Part shown: piece by piece, positions 6,354 to 41,531 of the stretch
Layout of the letters: each line of letters begins with the position of its first letter
Numbering within the stretch: the stretch's first letter is position 1
Source of the DNA: Gammaproteobacteria bacterium
GTDB taxonomy: Bacteria > Pseudomonadota > Gammaproteobacteria > Pseudomonadales > Azotimanducaceae
Direction: 5' to 3'
Assembly: GCA_002707325.1 (NCBI GenBank)
Contig: PAMO01000028.1
Coordinates: 1 to 47,455 of the forward strand
DNA length: 47,455 nt
Made by a program: the position numbers and the translations under genes
The notes under the pieces: generated by a model
The model's database searches: none
Told to the model about the DNA's origin: nothing
Seen by the model: only the letters and a program-made list of their open reading frames with translations

Positions 6354-6614
6354 AGTCCACCTCTAGTTATTTTCCATCGAGATTATAAAGCAGGTAGCTA
6401 AGGAAGAATGCGATTAGTGTAAATTAGTTTTATGATTTGTCGGGGTTTAAGCTAAAATTCCAGTTGTGGAACCCTGTAGCAAGTTAGCCGGTTAAGGACC
6501 CCGACTAACCTCGTCCGTTTTAAAGGCAACAGACATTGGGAAGACAAAAAAGAACAAGCTGGCACAGTCAACATTTTGGCAATAGCTGTAAGACAAATAA
6601 CAGGCAGATATAAA

Positions 6615-7247
6615 ATGCGTATCCTATCAAGCTCTAATCAGATCTTCGTTATTTCAGCGCCTTCTGGCGCTGGTAAAACTAGCCTGGTTGACGCATTGCT
6701 CAACAAAGATGCGAATATTGTTGGCTGCACATCGCATACCACGCGACCCCTAAGAGAGGGCGAAATAAATGGTGAAAACTACCATTTCGTTGACGATAGC
6801 GAGTTCATGAAACTCATAAAGAATAATCAGTTCGTAGAGTATGCAAATGTTTTCGGTTATAGATATGGAACATCTGAACTGGAACTAGAGAAGACTCTGA
6901 ATGCTGGGCTTGACGTCATTCTGGAAATAGACTGGCAAGGCGCAGAACAAGTTCGGAACGCTTACAATAACTGTAGCTCTATATTTATCCTCCCGCCTAG
7001 CCTATCGGCACTTGAAGAGCGACTGCGCTCTAGAGGGAAGGATACGGCGGAAGTTATCAGGGCGCGGTCCCAAGAAGCAGCTAGGGAAATCAAACAATGC
7101 GATAACTTCGATTATGTAATCGTGAACGACGATTTTAATAAGGCTTTACAAGAACTAGTAACTATCATTAACGCTGTCCGTCTAGAGACCAGCAAACAAC
7201 GCCTTAAACTAGCTTCCCTCCTTAGGAATCTATTGCCAGATGAATGA
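6615..7247 (+). CDS. gmk: Guanylate kinase
   Basis: P-loop SAPSGAGKTS and TTRPLREGEINGENYHFV. ATG 6615 (MRILSS...) is preferred over the upstream TTG at 6576. Confidence 0.93.
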   Translation: MRILSSSNQIFVISAPSGAGKTSLVDALLNKDANIVGCTSHTTRPLREGEINGENYHFVDDSEFMKLIKNNQFVEYANVFGYRYGTSELELEKTLNAGLDVILEIDWQGAEQVRNAYNNCSSIFILPPSLSALEERLRSRGKDTAEVIRARSQEAAREIKQCDNFDYVIVNDDFNKALQELVTIINAVRLETSKQRLKLASLLRNLLPDE

Positions 7248-31280: not shown

Positions 31281-32537
31281 TTATCTCGGTTTGAAATTCA
31301 ACACTGTTGCGTTGATGCAATATCTTAAGGAGCCGTTAGGCCCATCATCAAAAACGTGGCCCAGATGAATGTCCGACGTTACCGATCTGATTTCCGTCCG
31401 TCGCATACCAAAACTGTTATCTGGCCTGCTATAAACGGAACCGTCTACTGGTTTTGTAAAGGACAACCAGCCAGAAGTTGAATTAAAGCGGTCTCTGGTG
31501 TCAAACAACGGCGCTCCACTAAGCTTATCCACAAAGATTCCATCGGGCGTGTTTTTGAAAGCCTTATACTCTTTGCAAAAGCGAGCATCCGTGCCCTCAT
31601 GAAACGCAACGCGGTATGCTTTAGAGTCGCCAAGCTTGAAATATCCAACCGCCTCGTAGAATTCCTTCGGCGACATATAGCCTTGGTGCCCAAACACCTC
31701 CCGTCCTTCTTCAAGAAATAATATTGTAGGGGTGGCCCATGTGGGCGAATCGATTTGTAGCCCTTCCAGCTCGCTGGCAAGCCTGAACACTAGGGGGATA
31801 TCACCCTGATAATGTTTTGCGACACGGTCTTTAAATTTTTCACAGTAAGGGCAGTATCCATCAGGCTCAATCACGACCATGCTTTTACCGGTGACTATAT
31901 CAGTGTTATCTAATGGCTTTGAGCTATTAGTCTTGCTGAATTTGACCCCTGTGGAATGATCCGGGCAATACCCATTTGGGTTTTTCTTAATGTAGTCCTG
32001 GTGGTAATTCTCGGCTTTATAGAACTCTTCAAGGGGCTTGACCTGCGTTGCTATATTTCCGTAGCCAGCGCGGTAGAGCAGCGCTTGATATTCGCTCACG
32101 GCGTTTTCGATGGCTAACCGTTGATCTTCATTTGAATACAAGATGATTGACCGATACTGTGTTCCAATATCATTGCCTTGCCTATTTATTTGCGTGGGAT
32201 CATGCGATTCGAAGTAATGAGCTAGAACCTCGTGAATTGAAATTACATTCTTGTTGAAAGTCACCTCCACAACTTCCGCATGGTTGCTCTCATTAAATCG
32301 GTTTTTTAGCTTGGTTATCTCCCTATACGTCGCCCGAACGCCACTCCCATCGGCATAGCCTGATACCGCATCTATAACTCCCGGTAGCGATTCGTAGCCC
32401 TTCTCAGCACCCCAAAAACATCCAGAGCCTAGAACAATTTTTTCAGTATGCAATGTTGCCTGATCAACTCTAGCTAGAGCTTGCGAGCCGACAAATGGTA
32501 CCCACAACATAGATATATATAAGGCGAGTTTTATCAT
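31281..32537 (-). CDS. msrAB: Exported tri-domain peptide methionine sulfoxide reductase: MsrA - thioredoxin-like - MsrB
   Basis: Signal peptide from MIKLALYISMLWVPFVGSQALA (start 32537 preferred over 32603). MsrA motif GSGCFWGAEKGY, a central CPYCEKF thioredoxin-fold motif, and C-terminal MsrB motifs (GWLSF, RTEIRS, HLGHVFDDGP, RYCINA). Confidence 0.85.
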   Translation of the reverse strand: MIKLALYISMLWVPFVGSQALARVDQATLHTEKIVLGSGCFWGAEKGYESLPGVIDAVSGYADGSGVRATYREITKLKNRFNESNHAEVVEVTFNKNVISIHEVLAHYFESHDPTQINRQGNDIGTQYRSIILYSNEDQRLAIENAVSEYQALLYRAGYGNIATQVKPLEEFYKAENYHQDYIKKNPNGYCPDHSTGVKFSKTNSSKPLDNTDIVTGKSMVVIEPDGYCPYCEKFKDRVAKHYQGDIPLVFRLASELEGLQIDSPTWATPTILFLEEGREVFGHQGYMSPKEFYEAVGYFKLGDSKAYRVAFHEGTDARFCKEYKAFKNTPDGIFVDKLSGAPLFDTRDRFNSTSGWLSFTKPVDGSVYSRPDNSFGMRRTEIRSVTSDIHLGHVFDDGPNGSLRYCINATVLNFKPR

Positions 32538-32758
32538 ATCTTCACTTAACTTATTTAAACGCTCTTTTTCCCGCAACCCGGAAAAACAACTAAGCGCGTT
32601 CATTCAATATAGCAAAAATATCCGGGTCTGGCTTAAGGGCCGGCAGCTATTAATTAATTGCTATCACCTTGCCATACAATAAAAAAATCTAGGAGGCATT
32701 CATTTTTTGAAATTCTCCGGTAGGCTTTGCCCTCACACTAACGATGGGAGGTTAACGT

Positions 32759-33779: not shown

Positions 33780-34184
33780 CTATTCGTCATGACAAGAACA
33801 ATCTTCGTTCCTACAGGTTTGGTAGTTTCTAAAATGGGCATAGGCGACCAGCATTGAGCCCAGCAAGGTAAACCCCTTTTCTCCCAATTCTCCTAAGGCG
33901 TCGGCACCTAGAGCCACGGCCGCAGTAAGCATAAGCAGCCCAAGAATGCCCATGAGTAGAAAAGAAAGGGCCTTGTGGTTTCTATATCCCACCGTTAGAG
34001 AAAAGAGGCTAACTGGAACTGCTACAAGCACAATGAATTTATGCACAAATTCATTATCAAGCGCGAGAGCAAGAAAGCCGGAACTTAAAATGATAAAAGA
34101 TGGCACAAAGAAACAATGAACCACGCATGCCAAAGACAGGGTTATTGCTACTTTATCCGCAGTTAATTGTGTTTTGATCATCAT
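33780..34184 (-). CDS. MerC-like membrane protein with a Cys/His-rich C-terminal tail
   Basis: 134 aa and four hydrophobic helices. Helix 1 has LSLACVVHCFFVP (a Cys/His pair in the membrane, as in MerC-family proteins). The tail is CRNEDCSCHDE. Confidence 0.5.
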   Translation of the reverse strand: MMIKTQLTADKVAITLSLACVVHCFFVPSFIILSSGFLALALDNEFVHKFIVLVAVPVSLFSLTVGYRNHKALSFLLMGILGLLMLTAAVALGADALGELGEKGFTLLGSMLVAYAHFRNYQTCRNEDCSCHDE

Positions 34185-34572
34185 TTTTATTCACTACTCG
34201 GCGCTAGACTTCTGCCACACAAGCGGCTAAACATGAAGTGTTTTCTGTTATTTAGAGTTAGATTCGCCATCATCTCAACCCTGTAATAGCAATTATTAGT
34301 TATATCGGGAAGATCTTCAAGATTTGCGCGAGCTTACTCAGATTAATTATTTAATTCACCCTTCTTAATTACCCGTCGGCCACAGGTCTTATCCAACCGG
34401 GGGAGGCGGCTCTCATCAACTTTGCAGAGCCCGTCCATTTTCACATTAATTGACTCGCCCCTCCCTCCATCTATATTCTTCTGGCATGGGGAGGAACGGC
34501 AATTTCAATCATGTTCCTTGTAAGACTTTTAAGCCAAGCCTGCACGATACAGTGTAGTTAAAAGGGGGCGCT

Positions 34573-35274
34573 ATGGTCATGGAAAATGAAGATATCCGCA
34601 ACCAGGTGCTTGAGGCCTGCAGAGGACTGGCCGCATGTGGATTAGGGTCAGGTATTGGCGGGCATGTTTCCGTAAGATATCCGAATGAACCTTATTTCTA
34701 TATGCATGTTTTCGATCGCACTTTCGAAGAGATGCAGATTGAAGACATTCTTTTGTTCGATTTCGAAGGCAGCCCCGTCGATTCAGGTCGAGCTCCGAGT
34801 CTTGGTATTGAGTTCCATCACGGTATCTACAAGCAGCGGCCGGACGTTCAGGCAATTGTTCACTCGCATGGTTTCTGGATAACAGCACAGGCAGCGTTGG
34901 CTCGCACTCCCAGAATCCTCAATAATGTCTCCACAGTGTTTTATGAGCGAACTACAGTAAGTCCCAACGACGATTTTGCGTCGATTGCCAAAGTTCTCGG
35001 TGATGACGACATCGCCATCGTTATTCCCTGGCATGGTGCTATCACATTAGGGGCAAACGTCGGAGAGGCGGTGTCAAGACATGTAGTATTTGACTATACG
35101 GCTCGCATGGACGTCACACTGCCGCCTGAAGCTCCACAGATGCCGCACGAGCAATGTGCTGATTTAAGAAAGCTTGTTGAACGAGCAGATTACTACAGCG
35201 AAACTTGGAAGCTGATCCAGCGTAAAGCGAAAGCAACTTATGACGGAAGTCGCGTGGTCCCAATAGTCTTCTAG
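34573..35274 (+). CDS. Class II aldolase/adducin-domain protein
   Basis: 233 aa. GGHVSVR, EFHHGIYKQRPDVQAIVHSHG (metal-binding His cluster) and PWHGAITLG. AAGGGGG Shine-Dalgarno upstream. Confidence 0.8.
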   Translation: MVMENEDIRNQVLEACRGLAACGLGSGIGGHVSVRYPNEPYFYMHVFDRTFEEMQIEDILLFDFEGSPVDSGRAPSLGIEFHHGIYKQRPDVQAIVHSHGFWITAQAALARTPRILNNVSTVFYERTTVSPNDDFASIAKVLGDDDIAIVIPWHGAITLGANVGEAVSRHVVFDYTARMDVTLPPEAPQMPHEQCADLRKLVERADYYSETWKLIQRKAKATYDGSRVVPIVF

Positions 35275-35386
35275 GCCCCTAAAATAGTTATCTAGAGCTA
35301 TTCGATCGTGACCCATTGGTTGAGATTGGACAATACTCTAAGTCTTATCTAGCGTAAGATTAATTTGAACAACATAGAGTATTAAA

Positions 35387-35848
35387 ATGAAAAGTATAGG
35401 ATCATTAATCACTACCCTTTTTTTACTCCTTTTTTTGAGTTCTTTTGCCAGAGCACAGACAGAGAAACTGGACAATCTCGCTGCATGTGCGGGTGTAGTA
35501 ATAGGGAATGGGTCCGTAGATTTCTATATGGGTGATGAGCAGTCATTTGATGATGCCGCAAATATTGCGTATTCGGCGTATCTTTCAGAGATTTTTGCTG
35601 GAGGATATGGTCAAAATGATTTGAAGGTAGCAGACCAAATCCTTGGCGGAAACGTAGACAAAATAATAAGCGCCTACAACAGCGAGAATTTTACTGCAGA
35701 TGTGTATGAAGAAGTAGTTGGGTGTTATAGGTCTCTTGCCAAACAATTAATGGAGGGAGCAGAGACTATTATTAATAATCAGAGTAAGTGGAAAAATTTA
35801 AAGGATACGTCCATTGGCACTTTGAAACGAATGCTGAGAGCGGGTTGA
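35387..35848 (+). CDS. Hypothetical secreted protein (island gene)
   Basis: 153 aa. Signal peptide MKSIGSLITTLFLLLFLSSFARA/QT and a helical-looking mature part. Its stop is 19 bp from the stop of the convergent 479-aa gene. Confidence 0.6.
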   Translation: MKSIGSLITTLFLLLFLSSFARAQTEKLDNLAACAGVVIGNGSVDFYMGDEQSFDDAANIAYSAYLSEIFAGGYGQNDLKVADQILGGNVDKIISAYNSENFTADVYEEVVGCYRSLAKQLMEGAETIINNQSKWKNLKDTSIGTLKRMLRAG

Positions 35849-35867
35849 GTTGATTTTTCATCATCAT

Positions 35868-37307
35868 TTATCTATTTTCTATATATGAATCTATAAATGG
35901 ATATTTTTTTCTTAATCGTTTAATGATCTTTTCTTCGCCTTTTATCTCATCATTAAGCTGACTTATGTTCTCTTCAATTGTTTTCTTCTCAAGCTCCAAC
36001 TTACCAATTTGGTTATTTAGAGTGAGCTTTTGTTTATTAATTTCTTCTATTGAATTGCTTATAGAATCAATTTCTTTTTGAATCTTTTTATTTTGTTTCG
36101 TCCATCTAGTTGCTGTCTCTTTTTGTTTTTCCCTCGCTATTTCACGATCCAGGCTTTCTCTCTCGCGCGCTAATCTTACTGATTGTTCTTTAGCTTCATG
36201 GCTTCTCTTAAGCAAAAATCGAATGAAGAAATAAACAACAAGAGAAAAAATTGAAAAACTTAAGATGCCCGCTTTAAACTCGTCCCAACGCTGACTTCGC
36301 CTTATTCTTGCCTCCGTCTCAGCTTTTTTCTCGTCTGCCTCTATCTGCTGCAACCGTATCTTTTCTACCTCTATCAAACGTTCATTTTCAGCTCTTTCTT
36401 GCCTCTCCAATCTTTCCTCTTCTGCCTCTTTCGCCCTCCTTCTCTCTTCTAATGCTAAAAGCTTTCTTTCATGTTCCTGTGCCTCAGCCTGTGCCTTAGC
36501 TACCGCCTCCAGTCTCAGCTTTTCTTTTTCTAATTCAAGATTTTTAGCTTCTATCTGGGCAAGTCGTTCAACCTCCATCTGATGAAGTTCATCAAATCGT
36601 TTGATAAGCGCGGGGTGCATTTCTTTTAGGAAAAATAGAGCATGAATATTGATATCTCTGAGATTTCTTTGATCGGTTATGATTCGATTACCAGTAGTAT
36701 TATTGAAGCCACGCGTAAGCATTCTAGAATCCATTTGATCTTTATAGGCTTCTTGCCACTTTATCCGTGGGCTACGGCTATATTGCGAATACGAACCTCT
36801 TTCGTAGTAGTATAGATGTATAGGTAAGCAGGTGCTCGTCATATCTGGAAGCCTCTCGCCTAAATCTTTATAAGTTCTTAGTTTTAAAAAATGATCTCTT
36901 GTAGCCCATTTCTGTTTATCTGAAGTATGCATGCCTACAAAAGCTGGGTTAAAGGGAAGCATGCTAACAAATTCTTCTATAATTCTATCGATTGGGACAT
37001 AGACATAATCTCCACCTTGGGATTGAAATTTCTCTTTGGAAAAAACGGGATGCTTAAAGAGCGAACAAATTTCCTCTTCTGAAGCAATTGTTCCAAGAAG
37101 GAAATAACCCTCATCGTTATTGCTTTTTAGTGTATTTTCATAAGTTGTCCTGCTCTGCCTCGATGATGAGACATAATATTTATTACCCAGATCCTCTTTA
37201 ACTTGTGCGCTCACTAGATCTTCGTTAACTTGTGCGCTTACTAAAAGAGAAGCCAAAGAAAAAATAATACTCACCATAAAAGGATATTTAATAACACTTA
37301 GCCTCAT
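35868..37307 (-). CDS. Hypothetical bitopic envelope protein: signal peptide, globular domain, long charged helix, TM helix, second coiled coil (island gene)
   Basis: 479 aa. The N-terminal hydrophobic signal is followed by about 200 aa of mixed composition, then residues about 240-340 of E/K/R/A heptad-like sequence (LEKEKLRLEAVAKAQAEAQEHERKLLALEERRRAKEAEEERLERQERAENERL). A hydrophobic helix GILSFSIFSLVVYFFIRFLL spans about 347-366, followed by a K/E/I/N-rich coiled coil. The ATG overlaps the stop of the upstream gene (ATGA). Confidence 0.75.
   Translation of the reverse strand: MRLSVIKYPFMVSIIFSLASLLVSAQVNEDLVSAQVKEDLGNKYYVSSSRQSRTTYENTLKSNNDEGYFLLGTIASEEEICSLFKHPVFSKEKFQSQGGDYVYVPIDRIIEEFVSMLPFNPAFVGMHTSDKQKWATRDHFLKLRTYKDLGERLPDMTSTCLPIHLYYYERGSYSQYSRSPRIKWQEAYKDQMDSRMLTRGFNNTTGNRIITDQRNLRDINIHALFFLKEMHPALIKRFDELHQMEVERLAQIEAKNLELEKEKLRLEAVAKAQAEAQEHERKLLALEERRRAKEAEEERLERQERAENERLIEVEKIRLQQIEADEKKAETEARIRRSQRWDEFKAGILSFSIFSLVVYFFIRFLLKRSHEAKEQSVRLARERESLDREIAREKQKETATRWTKQNKKIQKEIDSISNSIEEINKQKLTLNNQIGKLELEKKTIEENISQLNDEIKGEEKIIKRLRKKYPFIDSYIENR
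37191..37244 (-). repeat. Tandem 27-bp duplication inside the 5' end of the 479-aa gene
   Basis: On the plus strand, aacttgtgcgctCact at 37200-37216 recurs as aacttgtgcgctTact at 37227-37243 (period 27). This encodes LVSAQVNED / LVSAQVKED. Confidence 0.85.
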
Positions 37308-38116
37308 GAGGGTTCATTAATATTATGTTTTCTGAGCACTTCCTCTAAAGACTCAAGTTCGCTACTTAAAGCATCCTCTTTATTTTCTATGTTCTTGAGC
37401 TCTCTCTGATCACTTTTTAATTTTGTATTGATCTCTTCTAAATCAAATTTAGCATTGAAAATTAACTTTTCCTCATCAACTTGAAGTATTTGAGAAATTG
37501 TAAGAATGTCTTCTGTTTCTTCCTCAGTAAGTTGAGAGGTTAACTTTTCAAGCATAGATTTTAATTCGTCGTTTGTTGAATAAATCAAGTCCTTGTCATC
37601 AAAGGAGTTTGACAACTCCGTTGAAATACCAAAATCCCTTATGGATGCGATGTGATTAATTATTTGAATAACTTTTTCAACTCTTGTGTCCCATGAATCA
37701 TTTATATTTTCAAGATCTTTGTTTATATTAAAAATACAATCTCTTCTGCGTGACTCTATATCTTCATGATTTTGTTTAATTCTAAGTCTTAATTCGTTGT
37801 TTTCATGTTTGACTAAATCTAAGTCGTGACTATTTTGGGCTATTTGGTTGCGTATCTCGCTGAGGCGAGTCTGCTCTTCTAGCTGGGTCAATTGCATGCT
37901 TGCAATTGCATTCATCTCGCGTTGAAGGCCAACACCCTCCATTTTAATTTCATTAAGGTCTGATTGTAGCTCCGTCTGTCGCTGCATTTCTTGTAGCTGC
38001 TGTTCTTGAAGGTGGTTTAATTTATCAGCTGCCGCGGCTTGCCTTGTGCCATTATTTATATGTTTCCATGTCCCATAGACAGCAGCGCCTGTTAAAGCTG
38101 GGTTTGGATTACTCAT
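37304..38116 (-). CDS. Hypothetical cytoplasmic coiled-coil protein (island gene)
   Basis: 270 aa with no signal peptide or TM helix, Q/E/L/N-rich heptad-like sequence throughout. Its stop codon overlaps the start of the 479-aa gene. Confidence 0.7.
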   Translation of the reverse strand: MSNPNPALTGAAVYGTWKHINNGTRQAAAADKLNHLQEQQLQEMQRQTELQSDLNEIKMEGVGLQREMNAIASMQLTQLEEQTRLSEIRNQIAQNSHDLDLVKHENNELRLRIKQNHEDIESRRRDCIFNINKDLENINDSWDTRVEKVIQIINHIASIRDFGISTELSNSFDDKDLIYSTNDELKSMLEKLTSQLTEEETEDILTISQILQVDEEKLIFNAKFDLEEINTKLKSDQRELKNIENKEDALSSELESLEEVLRKHNINEPS

Positions 38117-38278
38117 TTGTTTCCTTATTCTGTTTTGAAGAAAGCATTCCTCTTTATACAGGTCTAATCGTAATTAATCGATTATCACGCATCAATGCTT
38201 CAAAAGGTGCTTGCTAGTGCGTGGAATATATTCGAAGTCAGATATTGTGCGCAGGCCATTAAATAATGTTTGTAAACA

Positions 38279-38479
38279 CTACGAGCACACCACACAGAAA
38301 TAAACCAAAAAGGTCGTATGTGAGAAGTCGATTATTTTGAACTGAAACGCAGAATTTAATGTTGCAAAATCTGCGTTTAAACTTACTCGACAGTCATTGA
38401 GTGTTTTGGAACAGTGATTTGATTTTTCATCAAATGCTTTATGAAAATTCTTATAAAACTTAATGTATTTTTCTTCCAT
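38279..38479 (-). CDS. Possible 66-aa protein (island gene)
   Basis: MEEKYIKFYKNFHKAFDEKSNHCSKTLNDCRVSLNADFATLNSAFQFKIIDFSHTTFLVYFCVVCS. The ATG at 38479 lies 2 nt after the stop of the zinc-ribbon gene. The longer track ORF (to 38584) would overlap that gene. Confidence 0.35.
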   Translation of the reverse strand: MEEKYIKFYKNFHKAFDEKSNHCSKTLNDCRVSLNADFATLNSAFQFKIIDFSHTTFLVYFCVVCS

Positions 38480-38481
38480 GG

Positions 38482-38670
38482 TTAGAAAAGAACCCCGAAA
38501 ATAATCATAAATATTATAAAAATGAATAATCCCATACCAATAATGGTGTTTACAACTGCAAAGAATCCACTTACAGGTTTCCACTCATATTGGTTGGGAT
38601 GTCCACAATGCGGGCAAACCTTTGCTTCATATGAAACCTGCCCATTGCATACAGAGCATTCTTTAATCAT
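38482..38670 (-). CDS. Zinc-ribbon protein with a C-terminal transmembrane anchor (island gene)
   Basis: MIKECSVCNGQVSYEAKVCPHCGHPNQYEWKPVSGFFAVVNTIIGMGLFIFIIFMIIFGVLF has a CxxC...CxxC knuckle pair followed by about 30 hydrophobic residues. ATG 38670 overlaps the TGA of the lipoprotein gene (ATGA). Confidence 0.65.
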   Translation of the reverse strand: MIKECSVCNGQVSYEAKVCPHCGHPNQYEWKPVSGFFAVVNTIIGMGLFIFIIFMIIFGVLF

Positions 38671-39686
38671 TTGAGAGAAATCCGCGCGATCCAATTTGTC
38701 AATGGAGGTCCTGGTCTATCGTAAGATATTTCGAACTTGTCACTTAAATTTCCATCCGAATAGGTCCCATACCCATTGTTGTTGAGTCTACATAAGTCGT
38801 ACATTTCAGTTCCTTCTTCGTACTTATAACTCCAGAATCTACAAACTAAGTATTCTTGAAGGCGTTCTTTTTCTACATCAGTCAACATTGAAACAATTTC
38901 ACTTACTAGTTCTATATCTTTTTCACTATCAATGTTGTGGGGACGGTCGTGATCATATTCAGATACTGCAATTACAATATTAGTTATTCCATCTTCGTCC
39001 CAGAAAAACATTATTCCCTCTTGCTCTTGATTTATAAAACCAAGATCGAACTTATCTCGTTTCTTGTTAAAATTATTTAGAGAATGCACTGAAATCATTC
39101 CTTTGCGATCGTAATTGTTATAGGGCGAGAACCCCAGTTCATTTAACAAAGGAATAACTTCATCCAGAGGGTTTTCTGGCAACAGGACAACATTGCTATG
39201 GAATTTTCCTGGGTACAAATATGATTCTTTTGTTCTCTTGCGCTCTTTTCCTTTCCCAGAAAACCGGTCCATAGAGCAGGAAATTCTCACGTGGTCCTTT
39301 TTTTCTGGGACAATCTTCAATTCAAATGTATTCGACGGGTTAGAAATTTCTGAGTTGTAGTCTGTGCACCTAAACGCTTTGCTCTTTGTTATTGTTGCTA
39401 ATTCTTCTTTTGAAAGAGTTCCTGATTTATCGTAAATAGTCCCAAAAATCGATATGCCTATATCCGATTTCACTTCGAGGTGCAGTATCTCTTTTGATTC
39501 AAACTCATATCTTCTCTCTGGGATCATGTACTGTTTTAAGACAGAATCTTGGGGTTTAATAGCAAGATCTATCTCTAAGTTTTGTAAATCATATAGGGGT
39601 TCGGGTTCATTCTCTTTTACTTCGCCACATGCGGTTATGAGATAAACTAAAATAAATGACGGTATTATTTTTCTTATCTTAATCAC
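38667..39686 (-). CDS. Hypothetical lipoprotein (island gene), starting 9 bp after the glmS stop
   Basis: 339 aa. GTG start, n-region MIKIRK, h-region and lipobox LITAC. I recognise no domain. Confidence 0.72.
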   Translation of the reverse strand: MIKIRKIIPSFILVYLITACGEVKENEPEPLYDLQNLEIDLAIKPQDSVLKQYMIPERRYEFESKEILHLEVKSDIGISIFGTIYDKSGTLSKEELATITKSKAFRCTDYNSEISNPSNTFELKIVPEKKDHVRISCSMDRFSGKGKERKRTKESYLYPGKFHSNVVLLPENPLDEVIPLLNELGFSPYNNYDRKGMISVHSLNNFNKKRDKFDLGFINQEQEGIMFFWDEDGITNIVIAVSEYDHDRPHNIDSEKDIELVSEIVSMLTDVEKERLQEYLVCRFWSYKYEEGTEMYDLCRLNNNGYGTYSDGNLSDKFEISYDRPGPPLTNWIARISLK

Positions 39687-39695
39687 TGTTCCAAC

Positions 39696-41531
39696 TTATT
39701 CCACCGTGACTGATTTTGCTAAATTTCGAGGTTGATCGACATCTGTACCCTTAAGTAATGCGACGTGGTAAGCCAGAAGCTGCAATGCGACGACGTACAA
39801 AATTGGACTCATCATCAGATGCACAGATGGCAACTGAACCACAGTTACCCCATCTTCATTCTTAAACCCAGATTGCTTGTCGGCAAACACGATAAGCTCC
39901 CCGCCTCTTGCCCTAACCTCCTGGAGGTTGGATTTTACTTTCTCTAACAATTGGTCATTGGGAGCAACCGCTATTACGGGAACATCCTCGTCTACTAAAG
40001 CTAGTGGGCCGTGCTTTAGTTCTCCAGCTGCATAGCCCTCCGCATGAATATAGGCTATTTCTTTCAGCTTAAGTGCTCCTTCCATTGCCAGCGGGAACAT
40101 GGGGCCTCGGCCAAGAAATAAGGCGTGGTGGCGATTGGTGAAACGTTCGGCTATTCCTTGAATGGTTTGGTCTAGCTCTAATGCCTCTTCCATGACAGTG
40201 GGTAACCCCGCAAGCGCTCTAACTAGCTCTTGTTCCGCGTCTGGCTCTAACCCGTGCCTGCGAGCAACCAAGATTGCCAGCATCATAAGATCCGCTAGTT
40301 GGGTCGTGAACGCCTTGGTGGAGGCAACGCCTATTTCCATCCCCGCCTTAGTCATAATAGCCGCATCGGACTCGCGTACTAATGAACTATTGGGAATATT
40401 GCATAAGGCCAGCGCGCCAACATAAGGCCTATCCCTAGAAATGCTTAAAGCCGCCAAGGTATCCGCTGTTTCGCCGGACTGAGAGATGGTGACAAACAAG
40501 GTCCCCGGAATAACCGAGACCTGACGGTAACGATATTCGCTTGCCACCTCTACTTGGCATGGAAGACCCGCAAGTTCTTCAATCCAGTATTTGGCTATCC
40601 AGGCTGCGTAGTAACTGCTGCCACATGCAACAAAGGTTAATGCCTTAGTTTTATCAAGGAGCCCCTTTATTGTTTCGCCAAAAGCCTCTTCCAAAAGGCT
40701 ATCTTGCCCCAGCCTGCCTTCGAGAGTTGAAGCTAATGCAGCACCCTGTTCATAAATCTCCTTTTCCATGTAATGCCGGTAAGGCCCTTTATCTACATCA
40801 TCGGCATCTGGCTCTACACGAACCGTACTCCGAATGACCGACTCATCGGCCAAATTCCAAATAGAAATATCCTCCGCAGTCAGCTCAATTAGATCCCCCT
40901 CCTCGAGGAAAATAAATCGGTCGGTTACAGAGCGCAAAGCTAACGCGTCTGAGGCGATATAATTCTCGCCCATCCCCTTTCCGACCACCAGAGGGCTTCC
41001 CACCCTTGCGGCCACTATGGTCTCTGGGTCCGCTAGGGCGATAACACCTATAGCATAGGAGCCCTCCAGCTTTTTGGTCGCCTGCCTAACCGCCTCGAGA
41101 AGCCCCTTTTCGTGGTCATAATAAAAATCAACAAGATGGGCAATCACCTCCGTGTCTGTTTCTGACGTCAAGGTATATCCGGCCTCCTGCATATCGCTGC
41201 GTAGCTTCTCATAATTTTCAATAATGCCGTTATGCACGACACTAACCCGGCCAGACGAGGACTGGGGGTGGGCATTTTCTGCACTTGGTTTTCCATGGGT
41301 AGCCCAACGCGTATGCGCTATGCCTGTCCTTCCTTGCATCTCGGTAGATTCTAGGTCGACAAGCAAATCCTTCACCTTGCCAGCTCGGCGACGACAATCG
41401 ATGACTCCCGACCCAGGAGCAAGCACAGCTATACCTGCCGAATCATAGCCCCGATACTCAAGCCTCTTAAGCCCTTCTATAAGTATAGGAGTAACATCTC
41501 TACTAGCGGCAGCACCTACAATTCCGCACAT
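39696..41531 (-). CDS. glmS: Glutamine-fructose-6-phosphate aminotransferase (isomerising)
   Basis: 611 aa. N-terminal nucleophile MCGIVGA, two SIS domains and the canonical C-terminus PRNLAKSVTVE. Confidence 0.97.
   Translation of the reverse strand: MCGIVGAAASRDVTPILIEGLKRLEYRGYDSAGIAVLAPGSGVIDCRRRAGKVKDLLVDLESTEMQGRTGIAHTRWATHGKPSAENAHPQSSSGRVSVVHNGIIENYEKLRSDMQEAGYTLTSETDTEVIAHLVDFYYDHEKGLLEAVRQATKKLEGSYAIGVIALADPETIVAARVGSPLVVGKGMGENYIASDALALRSVTDRFIFLEEGDLIELTAEDISIWNLADESVIRSTVRVEPDADDVDKGPYRHYMEKEIYEQGAALASTLEGRLGQDSLLEEAFGETIKGLLDKTKALTFVACGSSYYAAWIAKYWIEELAGLPCQVEVASEYRYRQVSVIPGTLFVTISQSGETADTLAALSISRDRPYVGALALCNIPNSSLVRESDAAIMTKAGMEIGVASTKAFTTQLADLMMLAILVARRHGLEPDAEQELVRALAGLPTVMEEALELDQTIQGIAERFTNRHHALFLGRGPMFPLAMEGALKLKEIAYIHAEGYAAGELKHGPLALVDEDVPVIAVAPNDQLLEKVKSNLQEVRARGGELIVFADKQSGFKNEDGVTVVQLPSVHLMMSPILYVVALQLLAYHVALLKGTDVDQPRNLAKSVTVE

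What the first reader, a model, noticed from the sequence alone, without database searches (positions are those of the whole stretch)
35868..38116. Translationally coupled coiled-coil pair, including a bitopic protein with long helices on both sides of the membrane
**Seen in sequence**
- The 270-aa gene (no signal peptide or TM helix, heptad-like Q/E/L/N-rich throughout) ends in an ATGA overlap with the 479-aa gene.
- The 479-aa protein reads as follows: signal peptide; about 200-aa globular region; about 100 residues of E/K/R/A-rich charged helix; one TM helix (GILSFSIFSLVVYFFIRFLL); then about 100 residues of K/E/I/N-rich coiled coil.

**Inference**
- The long charged helix would span the periplasm, in the manner of TolA domain II-type helices.
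- The C-terminal coil would be cytoplasmic and could pair with the soluble 270-aa coiled-coil partner.
- I know of no described two-gene system with this architecture next to glmS.
Basis: partly seen in the sequence, partly recalled or inferred. Interest (0 to 1): 0.6.

Follow-up and report, generated by a model that had tools for sequence, protein, structure and literature searches.

The report
Undescribed soluble-plus-membrane helical protein pair
Two overlapping genes in a marine gammaproteobacterium encode a soluble helical protein and a membrane-spanning partner that always occur together, or fused into one protein, and match no described family, so their role is still unknown.

Summary
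A 270-aa gene (A, 37304-38116, minus strand) overlaps a 479-aa gene (B, 35868-37307) by ATGA. B has a signal peptide, an exported domain with two invariant Cys, a 104-aa charged proline-free helix, one TM helix, a cytoplasmic coil and an invariant C-terminal motif, RKKYPFIDxYIxNR.

The pairing is real. An A homologue sits directly upstream of a B homologue in all eight other loci where the upstream DNA is held. At least nine distant A homologues are single chains that end in the B tail motif. A complex prediction gave weak support (0.52 against 0.00 in controls).

Only A and B's TM-coil-tail part are conserved. The outward-facing part of B is interchangeable: a globular domain, a lipoprotein or a multi-TM block.

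Pfam, NCBIfam, PADLOC, PHROGs, PDB sequence and fold searches and the ESM Atlas gave no significant family match. PspA, TolA and SMC readings failed their tests.

The family is rare and patchy: 2 of 400 genomes in the class and 4 of 266 in a second order. It evolves fast, and I found it only in marine sequence. The position next to glmS is incidental.

I read it as a new membrane-tethered "A captures B's tail" module. Its physiological role is unresolved. The scan had already noted the homologous pair on another genome (e1-2107648).

The parts
37304..38116 (-). Gene A: 270-aa soluble all-helical protein
   Evidence: ORF. It has no hydrophobic segment. The AF2 model has pLDDT 82, with helices 6-138, 145-161, 172-194, 198-211 and 215-266. 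The profile search found 65 representative clusters at E<=1e-3, and none of the 53 scanned carries a Pfam domain covering the A region.
37457..37750 (-). Conserved core of A (residues about 123-220): motifs RDxIF, VEK, ISTExxxSFxDKE and EExED...VDEE
   Evidence: Invariant and near-invariant columns in alignments A2 and A7. This region forms a generic three-helix bundle in the model, with VIA Z<=9.1, which is within the noise for helical proteins.
37304..37307 (-). ATGA stop/start overlap of A and B
   Evidence: Sequence read. The same 4-nt overlap occurs in L003, L004, L005, G456 and G750; L006 and L007 overlap by more, and G776/L002 has a 2-nt gap.
35868..37307 (-). Gene B: 479-aa bitopic inner-membrane protein, predicted N-out/C-in
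   Evidence: ORF, two hydrophobic segments, 11 homologous clusters.
37233..37307 (-). B signal peptide (residues 1-25), predicted cleavage after VSA
   Evidence: Kyte-Doolittle windows above 1.6 at residues 3-28. Alignment A1 keeps a small residue at -1 followed by invariant Q-V. No dedicated signal-peptide predictor was available.
37189..37242 (-). 27-bp tandem duplication (89% identical) that duplicates LVSAQV(N/K)ED at the cleavage site
   Evidence: Repeat family D2. Homologue P0003 has a single copy.
36579..37205 (-). B exported domain (residues 35-243) with invariant C81, H86, D107, C160, H231, D239, E240 and H242
   Evidence: Alignments A1 and A3. C81 and C160 are the only Cys in B. The AF2 model failed at pLDDT 33, so the fold is unknown.
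36270..36578 (-). B charged helical stalk (residues 244-346), about 52% charged, no Pro and a single Gly
   Evidence: Composition. Its length is 59-104 aa among homologues. A periplasmic location is inferred from the topology.
36210..36269 (-). B transmembrane helix (residues 347-366, GILSFSIFSLVVYFFIRFLL)
   Evidence: Peak 19-residue Kyte-Doolittle mean of 2.26. A TM helix is present at this position in all B variants.
35913..36209 (-). B cytoplasmic K/E/I-rich coil (residues 367-465)
   Evidence: My crude heptad score (not a validated coiled-coil predictor) reaches 0.57-0.70 at residues 401-445. The region is conserved in alignment A5.
35871..35912 (-). B C-terminal tail motif RKKYPFIDSYIENR (residues 466-479)
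   Evidence: It is nearly invariant across the close B family and kept in weaker form in distant B variants. It is also found at or near the C-terminus of A-domain single-chain proteins. hhalign E-values are 2.5e-5 to 4.9e-4.
38117..38278 (-). 162-bp spacer upstream of A holding its ribosome-binding site; possible own promoter
   Evidence: Sequence. No consensus sigma-70 site was found there, so a promoter is not shown.

Best explanation
A and B are the two halves of one undescribed protein module.

Shown
- The conserved parts are the A domain and B's TM-coil-tail part, which ends in KK[YH]xF[IV]..[IL]..NR.
- These parts are always encoded together, either as overlapping genes or as one chain.
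- Whatever lies between them varies.

Inferred mechanism
- B inserts N-out/C-in.
- B's exported domain probably contains a disulfide bond. It sits on a 59-104-residue charged helix, 9-16 nm long if it is one continuous helix.
- B's cytoplasmic coil and tail motif capture A in a 1:1 complex, and translational coupling sets that ratio.
- In single-chain relatives the same A-to-tail contact would close the molecule or link molecules head to tail around a variable middle module.
- The gene fission seen here is what lets that middle module be exported through Sec.

Functional commitment
- I read it as a non-enzymatic, membrane-tethered helical scaffold or switch. It couples an exchangeable envelope-facing module to a conserved cytoplasmic A:tail assembly.
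- That makes it an envelope tether or sensor rather than a transporter or an enzyme.
- The cue and the output are unknown.
For: Co-conservation
- An A homologue lies directly upstream of a B homologue in L003, L004, L005, L006, L007, L002/G776, G456 and G750, with a 4-nt or larger overlap in all but L002/G776, where a 2-nt gap separates them.
- The flanking genes differ in every case.

Fusions
- Proteins found only through the A profile carry the B tail motif at or near their C-terminus: P0028, P0044, P0045, P0051, P0052, P0053, P0057 and P0067, all without a TM helix. P0109 has two TM helices.
- hhalign of the tail profile against P0052, P0108 and P0109 gives E 2.5e-5, 6.6e-5 and 4.9e-4, each aligned at or near the target's C-terminus.
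- TM-less and two-TM fusions put the A domain and the tail in the same compartment.

Variable outward part
- B variants carry a globular domain, a lipoprotein (L002), four TM segments (G456, P0094) or a different exported domain (G750).

Topology
- Supported by the conserved cleavage site, the two invariant Cys lying only in the exported domain, and the single TM helix.

Complex prediction of A with B residues 376-479
- Verdict: weak support. Score 0.52 in three runs; best of three controls 0.00.
- The mark was reached by 58 of 80 solved complexes and 2 of 110 mismatched pairs.
- At 0.60 or under it was reached by only 7 of those 80 solved complexes and by both of the mismatches that passed.
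- The runs agree in at least 98% of contacts, and partner pLDDT is at least 85.

No enzymatic or known domain
- None was found in Pfam, NCBIfam, PADLOC or PHROGs.
Against: - No direct evidence of binding, topology or expression exists. No RNA run was available.
- The complex score is in the band where passes are more often wrong than right unless the prior is high.
- The fold of the exported domain could not be modelled (pLDDT 33). Its invariant Cys, His, Asp and Glu residues could form a catalytic or metal site, which would contradict the non-enzymatic reading.
- Charges flanking the TM helix are similar on both sides (5 K+R each), so the positive-inside rule does not decide orientation on its own.
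- dN/dS of 0.35-0.54 shows weak constraint.
- The scaffold/switch reading follows from architecture, not from any assay.
Confidence: 0.55

Rival explanations
1. Envelope-triggered anti-phage defence, or abortive infection. B's head on its stalk senses phage-induced perturbation near the peptidoglycan or outer membrane. The signal passes through the TM helix and releases or activates A. This would resemble how Zorya and Kiwa use membrane complexes as infection sensors.
For: - Distribution is very patchy: 1 of 61 relatives, 2 of 400 in the class, 4 of 266 in a second order.
- In the window the pair sits in a 37% GC islet against about 47% GC flanks.
- It is a self-contained two-gene unit found in changing contexts.
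- It evolves fast, with dN/dS of 0.35-0.54.
- Its layout is a variable sensor-like part joined to a conserved core.
- There is a weak PADLOC hit to PD-Lambda-1 (E 6.9e-5, B residues 353-472).
- Membrane-embedded sensing complexes are an established defence theme (Zorya, PMC11946911; Kiwa, 10.1101/2023.02.26.530102).
Against: - No recognisable effector such as a nuclease, NADase, protease or pore domain is present.
- No PADLOC model matched A or nine further family members.
- The PD-Lambda-1 hit covers only profile positions 10-128 of 491 and falls on TM plus coiled coil, so composition could explain it.
- Neighbours are housekeeping or envelope genes, not defence genes: rpoD/dnaG, xerC/dapF/polA, ferritin, MsrAB.
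- Many family members are soluble and cannot sense the envelope.
Confidence: 0.15
2. Envelope stress or repair scaffold, functionally like PspA-PspBC or LiaH-LiaI. A membrane anchor recruits a soluble helical protein to damaged membrane, possibly linked to oxidative damage of envelope proteins.
For: - The gene order and logic match: a soluble helical protein followed by a small membrane anchor with a cytoplasmic coil.
- An exported MsrA-Trx-MsrB fusion lies on the same strand 3.3 kb from B in the window and 1.8 kb from B' in L002/G776. It is the only other gene the two loci share, and this fusion is rare (5 of 151 genomes in the order).
- A ferritin-like gene directly follows B'' in G456.
Against: - A is not a PspA relative: hhalign probability is 0.75%, Pfam PF04012 gives no hit, and the model lacks the ESCRT-III hairpin.
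- Four other genomes with the MsrAB fusion have no A-B beside it.
- L007, G750 and G739 have no redox genes nearby.
- The association therefore rests on two or three loci.
Confidence: 0.15
3. Cytoskeletal or division-site scaffold. A and the B tail would form a polymerising coiled-coil assembly anchored at the membrane, in the manner of EzrA- or DivIVA-type proteins.
For: - A has a very long helix (residues 6-138) and B has long coils.
- A head-to-tail A:tail contact in the single-chain forms could give filaments (inference).
Against: - The family was not found in nearly all genomes searched. That does not fit a core cell-biology role.
- No match to any such family was found.
Confidence: 0.07
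4. Two unrelated low-complexity ORFs that are merely adjacent, or non-functional island filler.
For: - Composition is biased (E/K/Q/N/L-rich).
- Constraint is weak.
- No annotated relative exists.
Against: - The two are adjacent in eight independent loci down to 22-25% identity, and there are at least nine fusions.
- Motifs are invariant in both proteins.
- dN/dS is below 1.
- The stretch is held by marine metagenomes from at least 7 studies.
Confidence: 0.03

Closest known systems
TolA (domain II helix of the Tol-Pal system)
   Same: Both have a long, charged, Ala/Glu/Lys/Arg-rich, proline-free helix predicted to cross the periplasm from an inner-membrane anchor and carry a globular domain at its far end.
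   Different: - The order is reversed. Here it is signal peptide, globular domain, helix, TM helix and then a long cytoplasmic coil. TolA has an N-terminal TM helix and no cytoplasmic domain.
- No TolA profile hit was found.
- No tolQ/tolR/pal genes lie beside it.
- The partner is a soluble cytoplasmic protein.
PspA-PspB/PspC and LiaH-LiaI (phage-shock type pairs)
   Same: A soluble all-helical protein of about 220-270 aa is encoded just before a small membrane protein whose cytoplasmic part could recruit it.
   Different: - A shows no sequence or profile similarity to PspA/IM30 (hhalign probability 0.75%).
- The predicted fold differs: one 133-residue helix plus a three-helix bundle, with no ESCRT-III hairpin.
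- B has a large exported domain and a conserved C-terminal peptide motif that PspB, PspC and LiaI lack.
Zorya ZorAB and Kiwa KwaAB (membrane-embedded infection sensors; PMC11946911, 10.1101/2023.02.26.530102)
   Same: Each is a membrane complex with long helical extensions and a soluble partner, carried on accessory DNA with a patchy distribution.
   Different: - There is no MotAB-like stator, no KwaA/KwaB (DUF4868) similarity and no PADLOC hit.
- No nuclease or DNA-binding partner is present.
- No defence-island context was seen.
- Soluble single-chain relatives exist.
PD-Lambda-1 (PADLOC PDLC03976)
   Same: A weak profile match (E 6.9e-5, 19.9 bits) over B's TM helix plus cytoplasmic coil.
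   Different: - Only profile positions 10-128 of 491 are matched.
- The rest of that protein has no counterpart.
- The match lies on composition-biased sequence.

Membership tests
TolA / Tol-Pal | Sequence match to TolA models | tested here: not met
   TolA does not appear among Pfam or NCBIfam hits at E<=1.
TolA / Tol-Pal | N-terminal TM anchor, then the helical domain II, then the C-terminal domain III | tested here: not met
   The order here is signal peptide, globular domain, helix, TM helix, cytoplasmic coil.
TolA / Tol-Pal | Encoded with tolQ, tolR, tolB and pal | tested here: not met
   The neighbours are glmS, a lipoprotein, a Zn-ribbon protein, a secreted 153-aa protein and an aldolase.
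PspA/IM30/Vipp1 (ESCRT-III superfamily) | Profile similarity to PF04012 | tested here: not met
   No Pfam hit at E<=1. hhalign of A2 against a PspA alignment from relatives gives probability 0.75%, E 0.075.
PspA/IM30/Vipp1 (ESCRT-III superfamily) | Alpha1-alpha2 helical hairpin fold | tested here: inconclusive
   The AF2 model shows one continuous helix at residues 6-138 and no hairpin. No ESCRT-III chain was listed by Foldseek or VIA. This is a prediction, and a family not being listed does not exclude it.
SMC-like / Lamassu LmuB | ABC-type ATPase head domains flanking the coiled coil, and a score above the model cut-off | tested here: not met
   TIGR02168 scores 16.3 bits against a cut-off of 567. 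LmuB has E 0.031. Both hits lie on coil only, and no ATPase motif or domain is present.
Methyl-accepting chemoreceptor | Cytoplasmic MCP signalling domain, with or without HAMP | tested here: not met
   The only hit is PilJ N-terminal at E 0.022, 15.3 bits against a cut-off of 26.6. There is no MCPsignal or HAMP hit.
IcmG/DotF (type IVB secretion) | Score above the NCBIfam cut-off | tested here: not met
   17 bits against a cut-off of 200.
PD-Lambda-1 defence protein | Match along the 491-position profile | tested here: not met
   Only profile positions 10-128 are matched, at 19.9 bits. No hit was found in nine other family members.
Tn7-like element at attTn7 (downstream of glmS) | tnsABC(D/E) genes, and element ends starting about 23 bp after glmS | tested here: not met
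   No transposase ORF lies in the islet. The next gene starts 9 bp after the glmS stop. No flanking direct or inverted repeats bound the islet.
The A + B-tail family defined here | A-domain motifs RDxIF, VEK, ISTExxxSFxDKE and EExED...VDEE | tested here: met
   All are present in window A, and the columns are conserved across 26 sequences down to 18% identity.
The A + B-tail family defined here | A coil ending in KK[YH]xF[IV]..[IL]..NR, encoded in the next gene or in the same chain | tested here: met
   Window B ends in RKKYPFIDSYIENR. The motif recurs in alignment A5 and in the fusions.

The most novel reading that the evidence does not exclude
A-B is a new kind of envelope-spanning sensor. 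B's exported head is held at a set distance from the inner membrane by a rigid charged helix whose length varies between lineages (59-104 residues). The head detects a change at the peptidoglycan or outer membrane, for example phage attachment or oxidative damage. The change passes through the single TM helix and makes the cytoplasmic tail release or reorganise A. The soluble single-chain relatives would be the cytoplasmic ancestors of this switch.
Probability: 0.15. Interest if true: 0.8.

Novelty: categorically new. Interest (0 to 1): 0.55.

Why it matters
The result defines a protein family that no database names. It comprises at least 65 clusters (at 50% identity) of A-domain proteins and at least 33 clusters (at 90% identity) of tail-bearing proteins. 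Its two-part logic is clear and testable: a conserved helical domain, a conserved C-terminal peptide, and an exchangeable module between them.

Within one family it shows a gene fission that lets the middle module be exported. That is a neat example of how a cytoplasmic protein can become a trans-membrane system.

I found the family only in uncultured, mostly small-genome marine Gammaproteobacteria, where a large share of genes have no function assigned. If the outward-facing module senses envelope damage or phage, this would be a new signalling or defence principle with no enzymatic domain.

The value is tempered because no function is shown and the family is rare.

Tried and rejected
The long contigs that hold P0002 (24 kb), P0106 (79 kb) and P0134 (870 kb) could not be read, so the neighbourhood census rests on nine loci.
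- AF2 of the exported domain, using a 7-sequence alignment, failed (pLDDT 33).

Searches that gave no lead
- ESM Atlas: no feature hit for A or the B domain. Structure rows had TM below 0.5 normalised by the query; one row reached 0.54 by the target's length.
- Foldseek against PDB for A: nothing at E<=0.001.
- VIA wide search: only generic three-helix bundles (spectrin, GAT, BAG) at Z<=9.1, within the noise for helical proteins.
- PDB sequence profiles: best E-values were 1.5 for the B domain and 0.026 for A (VapW antitoxin, 61 residues); not meaningful.
- Viral contigs (IMG/VR): no relative of A or of the B tail with the patterns used.
- Sequencing runs: no RNA holder listed.

Metagenome contigs laid on the window
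- They are short pieces.
- One joint, 34060 to 38383, rests on a single contig with 25 letters on one side and was discarded.
- Many loose ends at 39696 show only that the sequence after glmS differs among organisms.

Ideas rejected
- MsrAB linkage as a rule: four other genomes with the fusion lack A-B next to it.
- Tn7 origin of the islet: no tns genes and no end repeats.
- Weak hits to Ribosomal_L1, PilJ, DUF1664, RtcR, SMC, IcmG, PcsB, CARF, DruG and LmuB all lie on coiled coil, far below the cut-offs.
Full report
**1. What is in the sequence**

- Gene A (270 aa) lies at 37304-38116 and gene B (479 aa) at 35868-37307, both on the minus strand.
- They share ATGA at 37304-37307.
- A has an AAGGAA ribosome-binding site and a 162-bp spacer upstream. 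B has no comparable site, which fits translational coupling.
- Both genes lie in a 37% GC stretch (35387-39686) that begins 9 bp after the glmS stop. The rest of the window is about 47% GC.
- glmU and the atp operon lie beyond glmS (named by recognition of the translations, not by a family scan).
- The islet also holds a 339-aa lipoprotein, a 70-aa Zn-ribbon membrane protein, a 66-aa ORF and a convergent 153-aa secreted protein. Only the Zn-ribbon protein has hits, all weak zinc-ribbon matches below the cut-offs.

**2. Anatomy of B**

- Hydropathy shows exactly two hydrophobic segments, at residues 3-28 and 344-367.
- The first ends in V-S-A followed by Q-V. Across ten homologues the Q-V is invariant and position -1 is always A or S. 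This is the pattern of a signal-peptidase I site.
- Residues 35-243 are the best-conserved part. Invariant residues include C81, H86, D107, C160, H231, D239, E240 and H242.
- C81 and C160 are the only Cys in the protein. That fits a disulfide in an exported domain.
- Residues 244-346 are 52% charged and have no Pro and a single Gly. In homologues this stretch is 59-104 residues long. As a single helix that would be 9-16 nm.
- After the TM helix come about 100 residues of K/E/I-rich coil with heptad-like periodicity by a crude score of my own.
- B ends in the motif RKKYPFIDSYIENR, which is nearly invariant across the family.
- The N-out/C-in topology is inferred. K+R counts are 5 on each side of the TM helix, so orientation rests on the signal peptide and on the fusion evidence in section 5.

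**3. Anatomy of A**

- A has no hydrophobic segment.
- With an 11-sequence alignment, AF2 gives pLDDT 82. The model has one helix at residues 6-138, then helices 145-161, 172-194, 198-211 and 215-266.
- The family's conserved motifs are RDxIF, VEK, ISTExxxSFxDKE and EExED...VDEE. They fall in residues about 123-220. So A is not a featureless coil.

**4. Known families**

- Pfam, NCBIfam, PADLOC and PHROGs give only sub-threshold coiled-coil hits.
- PDB sequence profiles give nothing meaningful.
- Foldseek finds nothing for A.
- VIA-align finds only generic three-helix bundles, within the noise for helical proteins.
- The ESM Atlas gives no lead.
- hhalign of the A family against a PspA alignment built from relatives gives a probability of 0.75%.
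- AF2 of the exported B domain failed (pLDDT 33), so its fold is unknown.
- All named cluster members are "hypothetical protein" from marine metagenomes and one Gammaproteobacteria MAG.

**5. The pair is a unit**

- B has 11 homologous clusters and A has 6 in the 90% identity collection.
- In metagenome loci L003-L007 an A homologue directly precedes and overlaps the B homologue.

Three more distant loci show the same arrangement with a different B:

| Locus | A homologue | B variant |
|---|---|---|
| L002 (= G776) | 281 aa | 249-aa lipoprotein with no globular domain |
| G456 | 251 aa | 296-aa protein with about four TM segments |
| G750 | 241 aa | 375-aa protein with a signal peptide, an unrelated exported domain, an EKERKR-rich helix and a TM helix |

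- All three B variants end in a coil plus a version of the tail motif.
- What is conserved is therefore A plus the TM-coil-tail part of B (alignment A5).
- A search with that part finds 33 clusters. They include abundant 295-307-aa multi-TM forms.

**6. Fusions**

- An exhaustive profile search with A alone found 65 representative clusters at E<=1e-3, and 25 at E<=1e-10.
- Among the longer hits, P0028, P0044, P0045, P0051, P0052, P0053, P0057 and P0067 have the A domain at the N-terminus, a variable middle of 150-250 residues and no TM helix. Each carries the B tail motif at or near its C-terminus, for example ...LYKKYPFIKEILTNRI.
- G739 encodes the A domain, two TM helices and ...KHYPFLSEIF in one chain.
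- hhalign of the tail profile against P0052, P0108 and P0109 gives E 2.5e-5, 6.6e-5 and 4.9e-4. Each alignment lies at or near the target's C-terminus.
- These proteins were found by the A domain alone, so the tail motif is independent evidence that the two parts work together.
- The TM-less and two-TM forms place both parts in the cytoplasm.
- A complex prediction of A with B residues 376-479 gave weak support:
  - The score was 0.52 in three runs, and the best of three controls was 0.00.
  - The mark was reached by 58 of 80 solved complexes and 2 of 110 mismatched pairs.
  - At 0.60 or under it was reached by only 7 of those 80 solved complexes and by both mismatches that passed.
  - The runs agree in at least 98% of contacts, and partner pLDDT is at least 85.

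**7. Distribution and evolution**

| Sample searched | Genomes with a match |
|---|---|
| Relatives of the window's genome (B query) | 1 of 61 (the window's own genome) |
| Same class (A profile) | 2 of 400 |
| Order of G456, genomes of about 1 Mb (A profile) | 4 of 266 |
| Same phylum (A profile) | one marginal hit among 400 |

- No relative was found in viral contigs with the patterns used.
- The window's stretch is held by marine metagenomes from at least 7 studies.
- Against L003, dN/dS is 0.35 for A and 0.54 for B, at dS of about 0.3. The genes are constrained but evolve fast.
- Contexts differ between loci:
  - glmS in the window
  - rpoD/dnaG in G750
  - xerC/dapF/polA in G739
  - a ferritin-like gene and aconitase (recognised from its sequence, not scanned) in G456
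  - hydrolases and small secreted proteins in L007
- In two relatives of the window's genome, glmS is followed by a long helicase-like ORF (recognised from its N-terminal sequence) and there is no islet.
- The islet has no transposase and no bounding repeats.
- The glmS position is therefore incidental to the system.

**8. One recurring neighbour**

- The window and L002/G776 share only A, B and an exported MsrA-Trx-MsrB fusion (63% identical). It lies on the same strand, 3.3 kb from B in the window and 1.8 kb from B' in L002.
- That fusion is rare: 5 of 151 genomes in the order.
- Four other carriers of the fusion have no A-B beside it.
- I keep this as a lead towards envelope oxidative stress, not as a finding.

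**9. Reading**

Shown:
- A and the B tail module are co-inherited or fused.
- The part between them is interchangeable.
- No known family matches.

Inferred:
- B is N-out/C-in, with its head held on a helical stalk.
- A binds the cytoplasmic coil and tail motif.
- The split into two genes allows the middle module to be exported.

My best reading is a membrane-tethered, non-enzymatic scaffold or switch that couples an envelope-facing module to a conserved cytoplasmic A:tail assembly (confidence 0.55).

Rivals:
- Phage defence (0.15). It is favoured by patchiness, the islet location and fast evolution. It is weakened by the lack of an effector, of PADLOC hits and of defence neighbours.
- A PspA-like stress scaffold (0.15). 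This is by analogy plus the MsrAB and ferritin neighbours. Homology to PspA is excluded.
- A cytoskeletal scaffold (0.07).
- Chance adjacency (0.03).

**10. Verdict**

- The TolA comparison is only an analogy, and the glmS context is irrelevant.
- The family is new to the databases, and its function remains to be tested.
- The scan had already noted the homologous multi-TM pair on another genome (e1-2107648). I had reached that locus independently in G456.

Noticed in passing
window 37189-37242: A 27-bp tandem duplication (89% identical) duplicates LVSAQV(N/K)ED, giving two candidate VSA|Q signal-peptidase sites. Homologue P0003 has one copy, while P0001, P0002 and P0004 have two.
   Followed up: partly
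window 31281-32603 (-) and L002:10466-11743: An exported MsrA-thioredoxin-MsrB fusion (63% identical between the two) lies on the same strand within 1.8-3.3 kb of the A-B pair in both loci. It is the only other gene they share. The fusion occurs in only 5 of 151 genomes of the order, and four other carriers lack A-B beside it.
   Followed up: partly
window 35387-39686: The whole 37% GC islet after glmS has no Pfam, NCBIfam, PADLOC or PHROG match apart from weak zinc-ribbon hits. It holds a 339-aa lipoprotein, a 70-aa Zn-ribbon TM protein, a 66-aa ORF, A, B and a convergent 153-aa secreted protein. None of the other islet genes accompanies A-B elsewhere.
   Followed up: partly
protein P0028 (602 aa) and P0073 (575 aa), metagenome proteins: Two single-chain family members continue past the tail motif. 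P0028 runs into a ribosomal L7/L12 C-terminal domain (96.5 bits). P0073 has only a weak match (E 0.038). P0028 is a one-member cluster, so a chimeric assembly is not excluded.
   Followed up: no
L011 (G456) 6469-6909: A ferritin-like gene (PF00210, E 3.9e-16) lies 222 bp downstream of the B'' gene on the same strand, in a 1.3-Mb genome.
   Followed up: no
window 39696 (glmS stop): Contigs from four marine metagenomes show many loose ends exactly at the glmS stop. The sequence following glmS therefore differs among the organisms or strains that share this glmS end.
   Followed up: no
genome G000 as a whole: The assembly is 853 kb in 43 contigs and 57% complete. Its 'same genus' relatives differ strongly: the G002 glmS region is about 65% GC and its glmS is 70% identical, and the best G001 glmS match is 41% identical. 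The placement of this MAG is therefore loose.
   Followed up: no
L007:4519-4863 and 341-853: In the 7.7-kb metagenome locus the pair is flanked by a GRAM/bacterial-PH-like protein, an alpha/beta hydrolase, a protein with a sub-threshold MORN-repeat hit and several small secreted or lipoproteins. This looks like a flexible-genome region.
   Followed up: no
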